IMG/VR virus record: IMGVR_UViG_2778261349_000009
Location: 1 to 14,711 of that record
Source: a virus
Lineage: Duplodnaviria; Heunggongvirae; Uroviricota; Caudoviricetes
DNA: 14,711 nucleotides
Reading direction: 5' to 3' (one strand)
The position numbers were made by a program, and so were the translations under genes. This document shows, piece after piece, positions 1,693-5,360 of the stretch (position 1 is its first letter; each line of letters opens with the position of its first letter). Under the pieces are notes generated by a model, which did no database searches, was not told the origin of the DNA, and was given only the letters and a program-made list of their open reading frames with translations.

Positions 1693-1809
1693 TCAAACAT
1701 TCGCTTCACATCTTCTGTACAACACGGTGTTGTTTATGCAGCGAACAATTTTTACCGGGTAACCGGCACTGTCGGTATACAGTTGTCCCTGATTAATCAG
1801 AGCGAACAT
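1693..1809 (-). CDS. Small ORF (38 aa), hypothetical
   Basis: Internal ATG of the 79-aa track ORF (MFALINQGQLYTDSAGYPVKIVRCINNTVLYRRCEANV), preceded by AGGAG plus a 6-nt spacer. Starts 31 nt after the stop of the upstream 127-aa gene. The longer 79-aa version would overlap that gene by about 90 nt. Confidence 0.3.
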   Translation of the reverse strand: MFALINQGQLYTDSAGYPVKIVRCINNTVLYRRCEANV

Positions 1810-1840
1810 TTTTTCTCCTGCTCTCTGAATAGTGAGAACT

Positions 1841-2224
1841 TCAGAGCCGTATGTTTGTAGCGGGTTCAATGCTGATAATTTCTGCTGAGATAAGCATCCC
1901 GGCAAGCCAGAGTTCCCCGGACAGGTCTTCATCCTGGCATATCAGTTCGCCAATATTAATGGTGGCCATGATATCCGTTTCCCCTGTGCGCTCATCCAGG
2001 ACTTCTTCATAAGGCAGCGTTGCGTACAGGCTTTCAATAGCGCAATTGATAACATCCAGTCCGGTCAGATTGCCGCCGACAGTAACTTCGAATGTTTCGC
2101 GGTATTCCCATAGTCCGAAAGTTAATCGAACGGTTTGTTTTGCCATGCGTCCGCACGACGTCAGATTCGGGTCATAGTTCATTATTTGCGGTTGAGTATT
2201 CTGGTTGTTCATCTGATTTTCCAT
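1841..2224 (-). CDS. Hypothetical acidic protein (127 aa)
   Basis: ORF 1841..2287 trimmed to the ATG at 2224 (MENQMNNQ...) so that it does not overlap the stop of the upstream SPFH gene. Acidic, no recognisable motif. Confidence 0.5.
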   Translation of the reverse strand: MENQMNNQNTQPQIMNYDPNLTSCGRMAKQTVRLTFGLWEYRETFEVTVGGNLTGLDVINCAIESLYATLPYEEVLDERTGETDIMATINIGELICQDEDLSGELWLAGMLISAEIISIEPATNIRL

Positions 2225-2227
2225 TAA

Positions 2228-2244
2228 CCCGGCGGTTTGCCGGG
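2228..2244 (-). other. GC-rich stem-loop between SPFH gene and downstream ORF (possible attenuator or mRNA-stabilising hairpin)
   Basis: Inverted repeat cccggc / gccggg with a 5-nt loop located between the SPFH gene stop (2253) and the ATG at 2224. Only a weak U-tract follows, so not a canonical terminator. Confidence 0.3.
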
Positions 2245-2252
2245 CGTGTAAG

Positions 2253-3080
2253 TTATTTAATCTGGATAAATGGTGTATTGGCACCACTGGTCATGTATTG
2301 CGGCAGTGTACCGTTCCACTTGTTGATGGCTTCCAGCTCCATGACGCCAGGGTTCTGGCGCAGAGCTTCGCCGCGTAAACGAATGGCATCGGCTTCTGCC
2401 AGGGCTTTTGTTCGAATGGCATCAGCCTGTCCGGCAGCTTCTGCACGTAGCATGTTGGCCTCCGCTTCACGTTGCTTGACTTCCTGTTCGCGCTGCAGGG
2501 TTTTCTGGTTTGCCGTGACTTTGGCGTTAATGCTGTCGATAACGGTTGGCGGGTATTCCGGTTTACCTACATAAGAGAGGCTCATTACCTGAATGCCGAT
2601 GGGTGACATCTCTTCCTGAATGTCTTTAAGTGCGGTATCCAGTAGTTCAGACTTGCCGCCGTCGATAAATTTGTCGGTGGTCATTTTGCTGGCCAGTCGA
2701 TTGAGTGCGTCGGCGATCTTCTGGCGCAGGTCAGTGGCGGTAATGTCATCCACGCCTTTGCGGTAGGTCTGAAACACCGTGGTAACTTTGGATGGATCAA
2801 CTTTGTAGGCAACACCGATGTGATAGCCGATGGTTGTGCCGTCACTCATCTGGAAGCTGAACGGCTCATCGTAGGTCTTCATTTGTTTGAAGGTTGGGAA
2901 GATGTAAACTTCAGTATTCCAGCCAGTCCAGTAGCGACCAACACCGACCACCTCACCGACGCCTTTATCGTCGCCCAGTTTATTTACTTTGATGCCAACA
3001 TTACCGGGTTCAACGCGATCGCAGCCGACAAGGCCAATGGTCGGCAGAACAATGGCTAAAGAAAAAATAATTTTTTTCAT
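2253..3080 (-). CDS. SPFH/band-7 (stomatin/prohibitin-like) domain lipoprotein
   Basis: 275-aa ORF. N-terminal signal peptide with lipobox (MKKIIFSLAIVLPTIGLVGC, L-V-G-C). Central SPFH-like fold signature and C-terminal Ala/Glu/Arg/Gln-rich coiled-coil (QREQEVKQREAEANMLRAEAAGQADAIRTKALAEADAIRLRGEA), as in HflK/C and flotillin-like proteins. Confidence 0.8.
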   Translation of the reverse strand: MKKIIFSLAIVLPTIGLVGCDRVEPGNVGIKVNKLGDDKGVGEVVGVGRYWTGWNTEVYIFPTFKQMKTYDEPFSFQMSDGTTIGYHIGVAYKVDPSKVTTVFQTYRKGVDDITATDLRQKIADALNRLASKMTTDKFIDGGKSELLDTALKDIQEEMSPIGIQVMSLSYVGKPEYPPTVIDSINAKVTANQKTLQREQEVKQREAEANMLRAEAAGQADAIRTKALAEADAIRLRGEALRQNPGVMELEAINKWNGTLPQYMTSGANTPFIQIK

Positions 3081-3265
3081 TTTTTATCCTTAGTGAAAGA
3101 AAGACCCTTGTAAATGGCATAAATGCAGGGCGGGGTCAGAAACGCCAGTGCAAAGCCAGAAATAACTGCTATCGTATCCTTCATGGATATAAGGAACGGA
3201 ACGAGTAATCCGTAAATGCATGCGATAATTGCCAGTAAAATTACTATTGTGAAATACAGTTTCAT
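3077..3265 (-). CDS. Small integral membrane protein (62 aa, two predicted TM helices)
   Basis: Hydrophobic ORF (MKLYFTIVILLAIIACIYGLLVPFLISMKDTIAVISGFALAFLTPPCIYAIY). Its stop overlaps the SPFH start (ATGA at 3077..3080), implying translational coupling. SD is weak. Confidence 0.5.
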   Translation of the reverse strand: MKLYFTIVILLAIIACIYGLLVPFLISMKDTIAVISGFALAFLTPPCIYAIYKGLSFTKDKK

Positions 3266-3288
3266 TGGTATGTGGTATCCCGATATTT

Positions 3289-3396
3289 TTAACTGACAGA
3301 CAGCGCAATAAAGAGAATAATGATTTCTGTTATTGTCAGTACTGTGGCAAGGATTAAAAGCAGTTTTACTCTGCTTAAGTCACGGTTGCTTTTCAT
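3289..3396 (-). CDS. Tiny single-TM peptide (35 aa), hypothetical
   Basis: Below the ORF-track length cutoff; found by hand translation of the minus strand: MKSNRDLSRVKLLLILATVLTITEIIILFIALSVS. Charged N-terminus plus one hydrophobic helix. Ends 23 nt upstream of the 62-aa membrane gene. No convincing SD. Confidence 0.25.
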   Translation of the reverse strand: MKSNRDLSRVKLLLILATVLTITEIIILFIALSVS

Positions 3397-4022: not shown

Positions 4023-4027
4023 GATAT

Positions 4028-4210
4028 TTACTCCTCATCTTCATCAGCTGGTGCAATAACGTCATATCCTGCCTTTTCTGCAATAAACAGGAATGTTGAA
4101 AGACTTCCTACAAGTTCATCGTCATGAACATGACGAATTAATATTACTTTCCCGTTTTTGATGGTCAGCAATACTCTGGTTTGCTCGTGTTCTGCTGTTT
4201 TCTGATGCAT
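4028..4210 (-). CDS. Hypothetical small protein (60 aa) with acidic C-terminal tail
   Basis: ORF MHQKTAEHEQTRVLLTIKNGKVILIRHVHDDELVGSLSTFLFIAEKAGYDVIAPADEDEE. SD GGGAGA about 6 nt upstream of the ATG at 4210. Coupled to the 190-aa gene downstream. Confidence 0.55.
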   Translation of the reverse strand: MHQKTAEHEQTRVLLTIKNGKVILIRHVHDDELVGSLSTFLFIAEKAGYDVIAPADEDEE

Positions 4211-4212
4211 TA

Positions 4213-4326
4213 TTATCTCCCGTATGCTTTACGCAGAAACAAGCAGGCAATATGCATGTAATTTTTCCCGTGCTGTGCAATAAGGCAGGCTGTTTTGTGT
4301 GATGCCTTATGTTTTATAAAGGTCAT
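4213..4326 (-). CDS. Small basic ORF (37 aa), possible leader peptide or small protein
   Basis: Hand-translated: MTFIKHKASHKTACLIAQHGKNYMHIACLFLRKAYGR. Preceded by a perfect SD (AGGAGG, 6-nt spacer). Its TAA stop lies 2 nt before the ATG of the 60-aa gene. Confidence 0.25.
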   Translation of the reverse strand: MTFIKHKASHKTACLIAQHGKNYMHIACLFLRKAYGR

Positions 4327-4407
4327 ATAAAACCTCCTGTGGATTAAGGGTGTGATAATCCCCGGCGATTAAGCCGTAATATATTATCCGGAGATGACTT
4401 GTTCTAT

Positions 4408-4608
4408 TTAACTGGTTAGTTCTTTTTCAGCAGCTGCTTCAGCATAGCAACGTGCAAATTCAAGAACTTCATCACCTGTTCTTTTTATTGCATCGTTGTC
4501 TGACATTTGTAATACAACAACTGCGCATAATAAATTATGGATATTGTTTGCAAAGGAATCCGCTGCCAGGCATAAGCCTTCATACTTATCATGGATATTG
4601 CCAGTCAT
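4408..4608 (-). CDS. Small protein (66 aa) paralogous to the N-terminal domain of the upstream tandem-HTH protein
   Basis: Track ORF 4408..4650 trimmed to the ATG at 4608, which has SD AAGGAG 9 nt upstream and avoids overlap with the upstream gene (stop at 4614). Shares the motif DSFA..I.NLL.AV...D...K..G.(D/E)VLEF...YA.A.A with residues about 28-75 of the 4614..5306 product. Confidence 0.6.
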   Translation of the reverse strand: MTGNIHDKYEGLCLAADSFANNIHNLLCAVVVLQMSDNDAIKRTGDEVLEFARCYAEAAAEKELTS

Positions 4609-4613
4609 TGTTG

Positions 4614-5306
4614 CTACTCCTTTGCTTCTGATTTTCCCGTTAACAACCACATCAAGTCACAATTAAGCGCACTGGCCAGTGGTACTATCTGAGCAGCTGG
4701 AACTTCATGGATGCCGCATTCCCAGTCGTTTATGGGGTTACTATAGGTATGAATCATGCGGGCAAGATCAGATTCGGTTAATCCCAGTTTTGTACGGGCG
4801 CTTTTGATGCGTGCGCCAATACTTTCCACATGGACTTCAGGCACATTTACGCGAATAACTGACTCGCTGTTTTTTTCACTCAGCAGAGAAAGCGGATCGC
4901 ATCCTAGGACGTTTGCCAGGGGGATAAGCATGCTGATGGTTGGTTCGTACTCTCCGCTCTCCCACTGGATGATAATTTCTTCATCGAGATCGAGCAGCCT
5001 GGCGAGTTCGGCAGTTGTTAAGCCGCAGGCTTCACGTTTGGTGCGTATGCAGGCTATCTTGTTGCCTGAGCGAATAGAATGTTGTTGTTTTGTCGATGCG
5101 ATCGCTAAAGCATATTCATGAGTAAATTCCAGCACATCAAACCCAACCTCTTTTAATCGCGTATCATCCAGGAGGTTGAAGGTGCGAACAGCACTGAGCA
5201 GGTTTGCGATGGTTAATGCAAAAGAATCGAGGTCTAAATCATCACATAAGACCTTGTTGTAAGTATTGAGGCTACATGTTTTTGGTGTTGTTTGTAAGGC
5301 TTCCAT
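4614..5306 (-). CDS. Tandem XRE-family helix-turn-helix protein with a distinct N-terminal domain
   Basis: Two consecutive Cro/C1-type HTH units (…GLTTAELARLLDLDEEIIIQWESGEYEPTISMLIPLANVLGCDPLSLL… and …GLTESDLARMIHTYSNPINDWECGIHEVPAAQIVPLASALNCDLMWLL…) follow an N-terminal domain of about 90 aa. Start is ambiguous: ATG at 5306 (SD-like GGTGA upstream) is preferred over the TTG at 5342 used by the ORF track. Confidence 0.7.
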   Translation of the reverse strand: MEALQTTPKTCSLNTYNKVLCDDLDLDSFALTIANLLSAVRTFNLLDDTRLKEVGFDVLEFTHEYALAIASTKQQHSIRSGNKIACIRTKREACGLTTAELARLLDLDEEIIIQWESGEYEPTISMLIPLANVLGCDPLSLLSEKNSESVIRVNVPEVHVESIGARIKSARTKLGLTESDLARMIHTYSNPINDWECGIHEVPAAQIVPLASALNCDLMWLLTGKSEAKE

Positions 5307-5360
5307 ATCATCACCATGCAATTCTAAGTTGAAGTTAATCAATATATAATTGATGGTGAG

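What the first reader, a model, noticed from the sequence alone, without database searches (positions are those of the whole stretch)
1693..5342. Leftward arm lacks recognisable N, cIII, kil and recombination genes; about 3.6 kb of A+T-richer cargo instead
In lambda the region between cI and xis encodes N, cIII, kil, gam/bet/exo and related functions. Here none of the nine to ten ORFs resembles these; they are all unknown, membrane-associated or HTH proteins. By eye the region is more A+T-rich than the replication genes, consistent with horizontally acquired cargo. This is the main variable island of this prophage and the likeliest place for an undescribed system.
Basis: partly seen in the sequence, partly recalled or inferred. 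Interest (0 to 1): 0.5.

Follow-up and report, generated by a model that had tools for sequence, protein, structure and literature searches.

The report
Early-left accessory operon of a phiP27-like prophage
The stretch between the repressor and excision genes is the ordinary, already sequenced early-left operon of a phiP27-type E. coli prophage. It truly lacks lambda's N, cIII, kil and Red genes and instead carries nine small exchangeable genes of unknown function, the most notable being a membrane-scaffold (SPFH) lipoprotein with a tiny membrane partner.

Summary
Window 1693-5342 (minus strand) has no detectable homologue of lambda N, cIII, kil, gam, bet or exo, by four HMM libraries and by direct comparison with lambda's proteins. 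It is 44.7% G+C against 52.5% for the replication genes. The low G+C is not special to this stretch: int, cI and cro are as low, and the SPFH gene inside it is 50.5%.

The segment is the PL-driven early-left operon of a phiP27-like prophage at yecE. It is 100% identical to E. coli 00-3076, about 97% to published Stx2 phages and 84.5% to phiP27. Nine genes are supported:
- a dual-HTH regulator
- a 66-aa paralogue of that regulator's N-terminal domain
- a basic 37-aa protein
- a 60-aa phrog_340 protein, which in sister phages pairs with a ParE-like toxin
- a 190-aa protein with a confident fold that matches nothing solved
- a 2-TM protein
- an SPFH lipoprotein
- DUF5406
- DUF4222

The genes behave as exchangeable cassettes. 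The 2-TM plus SPFH pair also occurs in P2-like, P1-like, HK97-like and virulent phages. No known defence system was found. Among the closest relatives the left arm is conserved, and the variable stretch lies at 7.3-9.5 kb.

Verdict: real but ordinary, already in databases, with component functions unknown.

The parts
5361..5389 (-). PL-like sigma-70 promoter (TTGACA-17-TAATAT) upstream of the first gene of the leftward operon
   Evidence: Consensus scan gives 10 of 12 matches. It lies in the 23% G+C cI-orf230 intergenic region. This is a consensus match only.
5339..5400 (.). Two perfect 15-bp palindromes, TCAAT-N5-ATTGA (5339-5353 and 5386-5400), bracketing the PL -10 and -35. They are candidate operators.
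   Evidence: Only degenerate copies (2 mismatches) occur near PR (6173-6187, 6222-6236). The binding protein is not identified.
4614..5306 (-). orf230: a regulator with an N-terminal domain plus two Cro/CI-type HTH domains. The ORF is open to TTG 5342; the ATG at 5306 matches the 230-aa database forms. It is the first gene after PL, the position of N in lambda.
   Evidence: Pfam HTH_3 twice, E 2e-17. phrog_4836 'CII-like regulator', E 5e-92. 434 and P22 repressor HTH domains in PDB. 230-aa homologues, one of them 100% identical. A mosaic breakpoint lies inside the gene at 5048-5053.
4408..4608 (-). orf66: a stand-alone paralogue of the N-terminal domain of orf230
   Evidence: BLASTP 47% identity over 47 aa, E 5e-9. 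phrog_4587 hits both proteins. It has its own AAGGAG ribosome-binding site.
4213..4326 (-). orf37: a small, very basic protein (no Asp or Glu) with a strong AGGAGG ribosome-binding site. It is unannotated in most records.
   Evidence: Sequence. Intact in four relatives, with 14 synonymous against 7 non-synonymous codon differences to phiP27. Annotated in Stx1_14040. No family match.
4028..4210 (-). orf60: a phrog_340 small acidic-tailed protein. It resembles the C-terminal part of some annotated anti-repressors. In sister phages the homologue sits directly upstream of, and overlaps, a ParE_like toxin gene.
3450..4022 (-). orf190: phrog_1515, a small stand-alone family with a confident predicted fold that has no solved or viral-model relative
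3411..3434 (-). Weak hairpin plus U6 after orf190; at most a leaky terminator
   Evidence: -4.6 kcal/mol, z -0.5.
3077..3265 (-). orf62: a 2-TM inner-membrane protein (phrog_1130), translationally coupled to the SPFH gene by an ATGA overlap
   Evidence: A homologous 2-TM ORF lies directly upstream of SPFH in phiP27, E. coli 22-245, Fraca, Klebsiella phi10.1, P88, a P1-like plasmid, Erwinia S6 and Burkholderia Maja, and one gene further upstream in Cronobacter GAP31. The shared motif is P-x-[LM]-[IV]-S-x-x-D-[TS].
2253..3080 (-). SPFH/Band-7 lipoprotein (phrog_200), with signal peptide, lipobox LVGC and Asp at +2
   Evidence: Pfam Band_7 E 4e-31, above the cut-off. The closest solved sequence is HflK, E 8e-4. 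The lipobox and the mature N-terminus CDRVEPGNVGIKVN are invariant in 7 enteric homologues. 47 synonymous against 7 non-synonymous differences to phiP27.
2227..2245 (-). Stable G+C hairpin immediately after the SPFH stop codon, with no U-run
   Evidence: -14.1 kcal/mol, z -3.5, 0 of 200 shuffles as stable.
1841..2224 (-). DUF5406 protein (127 aa)
1693..1809 (-). DUF4222 protein (38 aa from the ATG that has an AGGAG ribosome-binding site)
   Evidence: Pfam E 5e-9. The start follows LC567830 and the sequence.
1395..1649 (-). Excisionase (DUF1233 type), the downstream end of the operon. The integrase gene follows at 75-1361.
5454..6173 (-). CI-type repressor (HTH plus S24 peptidase), the upstream boundary of the region

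Best explanation
Window 1693-5342 is the early-left operon of a phiP27-like ('non-lambdoid', Rha-type) temperate phage integrated at yecE.

Shown:
- A sigma-70-like promoter flanked by two perfect palindromes lies just left of cI.
- Nine co-oriented, mostly tightly spaced genes run from it to xis and int.
- None is related to lambda N, cIII, kil, gam, bet or exo.
- There is no boxA, and no strong intrinsic terminator lies on the coding strand.
- The genes are under purifying selection.
- The arm is built from exchangeable cassettes, with breakpoints at about 1711, 3265, 3464, 4210, 4593 and 5050.

Inferred:
- After repressor loss, RNA polymerase reads from PL through to xis without an N-type antiterminator, because nothing needs to be overridden.
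- The first product, the dual-HTH protein, is a transcription regulator belonging to the immunity module, since its N-terminal domain co-varies with cI and PL. The 66-aa paralogue of that domain probably modulates it by mixed oligomer formation.
- orf60 and orf190 are host-takeover or anti-defence accessory genes. orf60 belongs to a family that serves as the upstream partner of ParE-like toxins in sister phages.
- The 2-TM protein and the SPFH lipoprotein form one module. The lipoprotein is held on the periplasmic face of the inner membrane (Asp at +2). It probably oligomerises through its C-terminal helical region into an HflK/C-like ring, and probably docks on the conserved periplasmic turn of the 2-TM partner. 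In this way it would fence off or sequester an inner-membrane host component.

The cellular target is not determined. It could be FtsH, which would make the module a functional stand-in for cIII. It could be a DNA-entry route, giving superinfection exclusion. Or the module could act on membrane integrity and lysis timing.
For: Identity of the locus: 100% identical to E. coli 00-3076, about 97% to Stx2 phages and 84.5% to phiP27 genes L03-L08.

Absence of lambda functions.

Promoter and palindromes.

No strong terminator: only weak or U-less hairpins on the minus strand.

Purifying selection: SPFH 47 synonymous against 7 non-synonymous differences, orf37 14 against 7, orf190 24 against 9.

Cassette structure.

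Regulator paralogy.

SPFH module: Band_7 above the Pfam cut-off, and HflK the closest solved sequence. Lipobox plus Asp+2 is invariant in 7 enteric homologues. The 2-TM partner is conserved upstream in temperate and virulent phages. 742 phage records carry a homologue and 194 plasmids, mostly about 90 kb and non-mobilizable.

Knowledge-based steps, not tested here: the '+2 rule' for inner-membrane retention of E. coli lipoproteins; the HflK/C 24-mer cage around FtsH (PDB 7vhp and 7wi3 appear); lambda CIII as an FtsH inhibitor.
Against: No expression data were examined, and the promoter is only a consensus match. The binder of the palindromes is unknown.

'CII-like' is only a PHROG label. The NCBIfam DicA score (62 bits) is below the 101-bit cut-off.

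For the SPFH module, no NfeD partner is present, and the HflK and HflC equivalog models score far below their cut-offs (24 against 134 bits). Homologues in virulent phages argue against a lysogeny-specific role such as cIII replacement. The +2 residue is not Asp in all distant homologues: Tyr in S6, Glu in GAP31.

The orf190 and DUF5406 folds gave no functional lead. No paper in the library reports a function for phage SPFH lipoproteins.
Confidence: 0.8

Rival explanations
1. One reading: the segment is a horizontally acquired A+T-rich cargo island that replaced N, cIII, kil and Red, and it hides an undescribed system, for example anti-phage defence expressed from the prophage.
For: The arm is a mosaic with presence/absence polymorphism of cassettes behind the same int-xis module. 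The SPFH cassette has a G+C content (50.5%) unlike its flanks (33-39%) and a stable 3' hairpin, which are moron-like traits. In P1-like plasmids it occupies the slot that P1 itself fills with plp-upl-tciABC. A sister phage carries a ParE_like cassette at the orf60/orf190 position.
Against: PADLOC gives no hit apart from generic HTH domains. No consensus promoter precedes orf62 on the coding strand. The SPFH family is common in virulent phages, which gain nothing from lysogenic conversion. Core genes are equally A+T-rich. The closest relatives conserve the arm.
Confidence: 0.2
2. The SPFH lipoprotein plus 2-TM partner is a functional replacement of cIII. As an HflK/C mimic it would trap or modulate FtsH and so stabilise a labile lysogeny regulator, perhaps the dual-HTH 'CII-like' protein.
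For: HflK is the closest solved relative, and NCBIfam's best hits are HflC and HflK. Predicted periplasmic and inner-membrane placement matches HflK/C topology (plus the +2 rule from knowledge). The module lies in the PL operon, where lambda keeps cIII. The host HflKC-FtsH axis controls lambda CII (knowledge).
Against: Scores are far below the equivalog cut-offs. The cassette is absent from sister phages that share the same regulator module, such as Stx1_14040. It is present in P1-like, P2-like and virulent N4-like, Vequintavirinae, Kayvirus and jumbo phages with different or no lysogeny circuits.
Confidence: 0.15
3. The SPFH cassette acts on membrane integrity or lysis timing, or on entry of superinfecting DNA, rather than on regulation.
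For: In Kayviruses a 1-TM holin-like protein (MbpV) and an SPFH protein (MbpS) lie together in the lysis-gene region (PMC7150955). In the Vi01-like phage PhiSH19 the SPFH gene is next to an annotated superinfection-exclusion gene. Distribution across virulent and temperate phages fits a general infection-cycle role.
Against: In this window and in other temperate phages the cassette lies in the early-left operon, far from the lysis genes. The cited papers only speculate, and no experiment was found.
Confidence: 0.3
4. orf60-orf190 is a toxin-antitoxin-like pair, with a phrog_340 antitoxin and a new toxin, serving in abortive infection or addiction.
For: orf60 homologues sit directly upstream of ParE_like toxins and overlap them in E. 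coli 22-245 and Klebsiella phi10.1. In the window, orf60 ends 5 nt before orf190. orf190 has many invariant polar residues.
Against: In other phages orf190 homologues occur without an adjacent phrog_340 gene, following phrog_1886 or SPFH instead. In some contexts ParE_like pairs with phrog_1737 rather than phrog_340. There is no toxin-fold match. phrog_340 also resembles C-terminal parts of anti-repressors.
Confidence: 0.1

Closest known systems
Phage phiP27 (NC_003356) genes L03-L08, and the yecE-integrated Stx1/Stx2 prophages of STEC (LC5678xx series)
   Same: Same gene order, from DUF4222 through DUF5406, SPFH lipoprotein, 2-TM protein, orf190 and orf60 to orf37. Window 1711-4593 is 84.5% identical to phiP27, and the whole region is about 97% identical to Stx2 phages.
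   Different: phiP27 has different regulators to the left of cI: beyond 4593 only a 153-nt HTH stretch (4893-5045) is shared. Its int-xis is more distant (68.5%). Stx1 phages keep only 3464-5053.
Lambda PL operon (N-ral-cIII-kil-gam-bet-exo...xis-int)
   Same: Same position (cI to xis), same leftward orientation, and a repressor-proximal promoter. It ends in xis and int.
   Different: No gene is homologous except int. There is no boxA and no recombination module. A dual-HTH regulator occupies the place of N.
'Eru' non-lambdoid Stx phage types (Llarena et al. 2021, PMC8044961; PMC8951638)
   Same: These are Stx-family prophages with cI and Q but non-lambda early genes. Eru1 is reported to lack N, CII and CIII. 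Eru6, Eru7 and Eru9 carry a Rha protein next to cI, as this window does (6579-7322).
   Different: Those papers classify the cI-to-stx side. They do not describe the left arm studied here.
E. coli HflK/HflC-FtsH complex
   Same: Band-7/SPFH domain followed by an Ala/Glu-rich helical region. HflK is the best solved sequence match, over residues 116-239. The predicted placement is periplasm-facing on the inner membrane.
   Different: The anchor is a lipid (lipobox) rather than a TM helix. There is one SPFH gene rather than a K/C pair. NCBIfam equivalog scores are about 24 bits against cut-offs of 134-159. No link to FtsH has been tested.
Bacterial SPFH-NfeD operons (for example QmcA-YbbJ; Hinderhofer et al. 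2009, PMC2636767)
   Same: A small membrane protein gene is translationally coupled to an SPFH gene, and the pairing is conserved across lineages.
   Different: The partner has no NfeD or OB-fold domain: no Pfam hit, only 62 aa and two TM helices. The SPFH protein is a lipoprotein.
Kayvirus mbpV-mbpS (Staphylococcus phage K ORF29/ORF28)
   Same: A small TM protein lies directly upstream of an SPFH protein in a phage genome (PMC7150955).
   Different: Only about 23% identity. The partner has one TM helix. The pair lies in the lysis region of a virulent Gram-positive phage.

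Membership tests
Lambda N antitermination system | N-family protein with an arginine-rich motif, encoded by the first gene after PL | tested here: not met
   No Pfam or PHROG N family for any ORF. Lambda N against the window gives a best phmmer E of 0.92 and no tblastn hit with E<=10. The first gene is a dual-HTH protein.
Lambda N antitermination system | nut sites (boxA plus boxB) downstream of PL and PR | tested here: not met
   CGCTCTTTA with up to 1 mismatch gives 0 matches in the window. boxB hairpins were not searched systematically.
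Lambda CIII, Kil, Gam, Bet and Exo | Sequence or profile similarity to the respective families | tested here: not met
   No hit in four HMM libraries. In direct tblastn, cIII, gam, bet and exo give best E >=0.45 and kil gives no hit at E<=10. In direct phmmer the best E is >=0.17 for all five.
SPFH / Band-7 superfamily | Band_7 domain above the Pfam gathering score | tested here: met
   PF01145, 108.8 bits against a cut-off of 23.6, residues 22-208.
SPFH / Band-7 superfamily | N-terminal membrane anchor | tested here: met
   Signal peptide plus lipobox L-V-G-C (a lipid anchor rather than a TM helix), conserved in 7 enteric homologues and in the S6, Maja and GAP31 homologues.
HflK / HflC (FtsH modulators) | Score above the NCBIfam equivalog cut-off | tested here: not met
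   HflC 24 bits against 134.4; HflK 19.9 bits against 159.4.
HflK / HflC (FtsH modulators) | Physical association with FtsH and assembly into a ring | not testable with these tools
   Needs co-purification or cryo-EM. No multimer prediction tool was available.
SPFH-NfeD operon | Adjacent NfeD-domain partner | tested here: not met
   orf62 has no Pfam hit. It is a 62-aa 2-TM protein of phrog_1130.
Known anti-phage defence systems (PADLOC-DB v2) | Match of any component to a defence-system model | tested here: not met
   Seven of eight proteins have no hit. orf242 matches only through its generic HTH domains (RmrA, capH, control protein).
Moron (autonomous accessory cassette in a prophage) | Presence/absence polymorphism between otherwise syntenic phages, and composition unlike the flanks | tested here: met
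   The SPFH cassette is absent from Stx1_14040, which has the same int-xis, and present in P2-like, P1-like and HK97-like backbones. G+C is 50.5% against 33-39% in the flanks.
Moron (autonomous accessory cassette in a prophage) | Own promoter and terminator, with expression in the lysogen | tested here: inconclusive
   No consensus promoter upstream of orf62 on the minus strand. A stable 3' hairpin is present but lacks a U-run. Expression was not testable.
Type II toxin-antitoxin (ParE-like) | ParE_like toxin gene next to the phrog_340 gene | tested here: not met
   No PF24732 in the window. It is present in the sister loci L008 and L005.

The most novel reading that the evidence does not exclude
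The translationally coupled pair of a 2-TM protein and an SPFH lipoprotein (3265-2253) may be a widespread, uncharacterised phage module. On this reading it builds an HflK/C-like cage on the periplasmic face of the host inner membrane and captures a specific host machine: FtsH, or a DNA-entry or lysis component. Full-length SPFH lipoprotein homologues (36% identity or more) occur in temperate and virulent phages of Proteobacteria, and the 2-TM partner was confirmed upstream in the ten contexts inspected. More distant SPFH relatives occur in Staphylococcus, crAss-like, jumbo and haloarchaeal viruses. In this prophage the module would stand in for lambda cIII. Separately, orf190 would be a new fold with a host-takeover or toxin role.
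Probability: 0.2. Interest if true: 0.65.

Novelty: already known. Interest (0 to 1): 0.28.

Why it matters
As a locus it matters little. It is a standard early-left accessory arm of a well-sampled family of Stx-type prophages, and the absence of N, cIII and Red in such phages is documented.

The side products are more useful. Some phage-borne gene families are very common but have no assigned function, and they sit in clinically relevant STEC prophages. The main one is the SPFH lipoprotein with its conserved 2-TM partner. The others are phrog_1515 (a confident fold with no match), phrog_340 and DUF5406. If the SPFH pair modulates FtsH, DNA entry or lysis, it would affect lysogeny, induction and hence toxin release. 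It would also give a first function to a family found in hundreds of phage genomes.

Tried and rejected
- I recalled that the SPFH and small-protein pair was P1 plp/upl. Checking showed this is wrong: P1 plp is a 125-aa protein on the other strand. P1-like plasmids carry the SPFH cassette in the slot that P1 fills with plp-upl-tciABC.
- PADLOC and NCBIfam gave nothing beyond generic HTH hits and sub-threshold HflK/C hits.
- Sequence searches of PDB for orf190, DUF5406 and orf60 found nothing.
- The candidate 35-aa hydrophobic ORF (3289-3396) is rejected as a gene: non-synonymous differences exceed synonymous ones, and it is absent from sister cassettes.
- My first orf37 coordinates were one base out of frame, so the orf37 rows are void. 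They are corrected.
- The first palindrome search used the wrong spacer, N6. It was repeated with N5.
- Literature searches for a function of phage SPFH proteins or DUF5406 returned only speculation. The phiP27 and P1 genome papers are not held.
- Pasteurella PM0222 is a prophage SPFH protein reported as a virulence factor (PMC9872710). I could not test whether it is homologous to this family.

Full report
**What the window is.** The 14.7-kb window is the left part of a prophage. It is 99.9-100% identical to prophages in E. coli 00-3076 and RM9245. The region in question is about 97% identical to Stx2-converting phages of the LC5678xx series, and window 1711-4593 is 84.5% identical to phage phiP27.

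The gene order, left to right, is as follows:
- minus strand: int (75-1361), xis (1395-1649), the region under study (1693-5342), cI (5454-6173)
- plus strand: cro, a Rha-type regulator, a stretch carrying IsrK and C4 RNA, an O-like initiator, a DnaC-like loader, DnaB, DUF968 and Q

In relatives the prophage sits next to yecE (a DUF72 gene).

**Check of the observation: gene content.** Reading the minus strand and comparing with annotated relatives gives nine supported genes:

| Gene | Coordinates | Note |
|---|---|---|
| orf230 | 4614-5306 | ORF open to 5342 |
| orf66 | 4408-4608 | |
| orf37 | 4213-4326 | |
| orf60 | 4028-4210 | |
| orf190 | 3450-4022 | |
| orf62 | 3077-3265 | |
| SPFH lipoprotein | 2253-3080 | |
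| DUF5406 | 1841-2224 | |
| DUF4222 | 1693-1809 | |

Codon-level comparison with relatives supports coding for the doubtful small orf37: 14 synonymous against 7 non-synonymous differences to phiP27, and the ORF is intact in four relatives. It shows strong constraint on the SPFH gene (47 against 7). A tenth candidate, a 35-aa hydrophobic ORF at 3289-3396, is not supported (2 against 7).

**Check of the observation: absence of lambda functions.** None of the proteins matches an N, CIII, Kil, Gam, Bet or Exo family in Pfam, PHROGs, PADLOC or NCBIfam. I also fetched lambda 27.5-38.2 kb and compared its 21 left-arm proteins with the window by tblastn and by unfiltered phmmer. Only Int is related (E 5e-7). 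No boxA-like element exists.

**Check of the observation: composition.** The region is 44.7% G+C against 52.5% for the replication genes, so the by-eye impression is right. However, int (43.1%), cI (43.1%) and cro (40.7%) are just as low, and the SPFH gene inside the region is 50.5%. Low G+C is a property of the whole left 6.5 kb. It does not mark this stretch as foreign.

**How the operon is organised.** A TTGACA-17-TAATAT promoter (5389-5361, minus strand) lies in the 23% G+C gap next to cI. It is bracketed by two perfect 15-bp palindromes, TCAAT-N5-ATTGA, at 5339-5353 and 5386-5400. Most genes have recognisable ribosome-binding sites and short or overlapping junctions.

On the coding strand there is no convincing intrinsic terminator:
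- The hairpin after orf190 is weak (-4.6 kcal/mol, z -0.5), although a U6 run follows it.
- The hairpin after the SPFH gene is stable (-14.1 kcal/mol, z -3.5) but lacks a U-run.

I therefore infer that the arm is read from PL to xis without an N-type factor. This is an inference from sequence, not a measurement.

**Mosaic structure.** Pairwise comparison with eight loci gives breakpoints near 1711, 3265, 3464, 4210, 4593 and 5050.
- Stx1_14040 shares int-xis and 3464-5053 but has ten other small genes instead of DUF4222, DUF5406, SPFH and orf62.
- E. coli 22-245 shares 89-3265 and 4210-5048, but has a phrog_340, ParE_like and phrog_1886 cassette in place of orf60-orf190.
- phiP27 shares 1711-4593 but has other regulators.

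The int-xis module is present in 512 of 5426 complete E. coli genomes, while at least 80% of this cargo is present in 79. At family scale, then, the arm is a set of exchangeable cassettes.

At close range it is not the variable part. Three near relatives keep the whole arm at 92-100% identity and differ instead at 7525-7620, 8184-8358, 8600-9500 and 9825-10214.

**The regulator pair.** orf230 carries two Cro/CI-type HTH domains behind an N-terminal domain of about 85 aa. PHROGs labels its family 'CII-like regulator'. NCBIfam's best model, DicA, is below its cut-off.

orf66 is a paralogue of the N-terminal domain alone (47% identity over 47 aa, E 5e-9). A mosaic breakpoint falls between the N-terminal domain and the first HTH (5048-5053). 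Many database homologues share only the HTH part. The N-terminal domain therefore travels with the immunity region. A truncated paralogue that titrates or caps the full-length regulator is the simplest reading. It is untested.

**orf60 and orf190.** orf60 (phrog_340) also resembles the C-terminal part of some proteins annotated as anti-repressors. In two sister phages its homologue lies directly upstream of a ParE_like toxin gene and overlaps it.

**The SPFH cassette.** The 275-aa protein has a Band_7 domain well above the Pfam threshold. HflK is its closest solved sequence. The HflK and HflC equivalog models score far below their cut-offs, so it is an SPFH protein but not an HflK/C orthologue.

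It starts with a signal peptide and the lipobox LVGC. Asp at +2 and the mature N-terminus CDRVEPGNVGIKVN are identical in seven enterobacterial homologues. By the E. coli '+2 rule' (established knowledge, not tested here) this predicts retention in the inner membrane, facing the periplasm.

Its start overlaps the stop of orf62 (ATGA). orf62 is a 62-aa protein with two hydrophobic helices. A homologous 2-TM ORF with a shared P-x-[LM]-[IV]-S-x-x-D-[TS] turn lies directly upstream of the SPFH gene in each of these genomes, and one gene further upstream in Cronobacter GAP31:
- phiP27
- E. coli 22-245
- HK97-like Fraca
- a Klebsiella prophage
- P2-like P88
- a P1-like plasmid
- N4-like Erwinia S6
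- Burkholderia Maja

Overall, 742 phage records encode a homologue, including virulent, jumbo, crAss-like and haloarchaeal viruses. 194 plasmids also do so, nearly all about 90 kb and non-mobilizable.

In Kayviruses a 1-TM protein and an SPFH protein lie together in the lysis region. Their role has only been guessed at (PMC7150955). I found no functional study.

My working model is a ring-forming periplasmic scaffold docked on the 2-TM partner that sequesters an inner-membrane host component. FtsH (cIII-like effect), DNA entry (exclusion) and membrane integrity or lysis timing are the candidates. The wide occurrence in virulent phages argues against a purely lysogeny-related role.

**DUF5406 and DUF4222.** DUF5406 gives a good model (pLDDT 84) with no informative structural neighbour. 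One metagenomic protein fuses it to a Lar-like zinc ribbon, which is a weak hint towards restriction alleviation. DUF4222 is a 38-aa protein. Paralogous DUF4222 genes occur on the right arm of sister phages.

**Comparison with what is known, and verdict.** The locus is a member of the phiP27-like group, and its sequence is already public. Stx-family phages with non-lambda early regions, some lacking N, CII and CIII, have been described as 'Eru' types. The Rha gene next to cI here fits the Rha-bearing types (PMC8044961, PMC8951638).

The interpretation as a distinctive A+T-rich island, the main variable island and a likely home of an undescribed system is only partly supported.

The finding is ordinary at the level of the locus. 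What remains open is the function of several common phage gene families, above all the 2-TM plus SPFH lipoprotein pair.

Noticed in passing
window 7574-7762 (+): Rfam finds an IsrK RNA (7574-7650, 61 bits) and a C4 antisense RNA (7675-7762, 83 bits), as in P1/P7 immunity region I. The long ORF 7325-8182 runs over both. Its Pfam 'Ash' match (aa 85-173, nt about 7577-7843) coincides with the RNA genes, so the 'ash family protein' annotation in relatives may partly be a translation of RNA genes.
   Followed up: partly
window 5339-5353 and 5386-5400: Two perfect TCAAT-N5-ATTGA palindromes lie 47 bp apart and bracket the PL-like promoter. The PR side has only 2-mismatch versions (6173-6187, 6222-6236). 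A separate 20-nt direct repeat is shared by the PL and PR regions (5400-5419 and 6178-6197, 85%). It is open which protein binds which site: CI, Cro or the dual-HTH protein.
   Followed up: partly
window 1367-1384 (-): A hairpin (-9.0 kcal/mol) between xis and int has a 3' arm that contains the int ribosome-binding site (GGGAGG-UUUU-AUG). This would couple or limit int translation on the PL transcript. It is not significantly more stable than shuffled sequence (z -1.0).
   Followed up: partly
window 4614-5306 and 4408-4608: orf66 is a stand-alone paralogue of the N-terminal domain of the dual-HTH regulator. A recombination breakpoint (5048-5053) separates that domain from the HTH domains, so the domain travels with the immunity region.
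   Followed up: yes
window 4213-4326 (-): An unannotated 37-aa ORF with an AGGAGG ribosome-binding site encodes a protein with no acidic residue (5 Lys, 2 Arg, 5 His). It is conserved under purifying selection in phiP27 and three other relatives. No family match.
   Followed up: yes
window 3450-4022 (-): orf190 and its closest relatives end three residues early and lack the C-terminal His that is nearly invariant in the rest of the family (alignment A4). A WRW motif (residues 71-73) is conserved among the closer relatives.
   Followed up: partly
P0137 (metagenomic protein); window 1841-2224: One DUF5406 protein is fused to a Lar-type restriction-alleviation zinc ribbon (PF14354). Another record (P0093) is an in-frame deletion fusing the SPFH and DUF5406 genes.
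   Followed up: no
L004 (pF1273-3) 3865-6132 and L023 (P1) 13349-15009: In P1-like plasmids the slot between tRNA-Thr and tRNA-Ile upstream of ban is variable. P1 has plp-upl-tciABC there; many plasmids have the 2-TM plus SPFH cassette.
   Followed up: partly
window 8591-9906 (+): The replication-initiator region is split into two overlapping ORFs here (108 aa with an HTH_36-like N-terminal part, plus 330 aa). Window 8600-9500 has no counterpart in the closest relatives, which have a single gene of about 300 aa. This is the real hypervariable spot among close relatives.
   Followed up: partly
L005 (Klebsiella phage ST340-VIM1phi10.1) 3878-7167: A tightly coupled run with 4-nt overlaps: phrog_340-like, ParE_like, phrog_1886, 2-TM, SPFH, orf190-like, then a Rha anti-repressor. 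The same families recur in different orders in sister phages, which suggests a shared pool of early-left accessory genes.
   Followed up: partly
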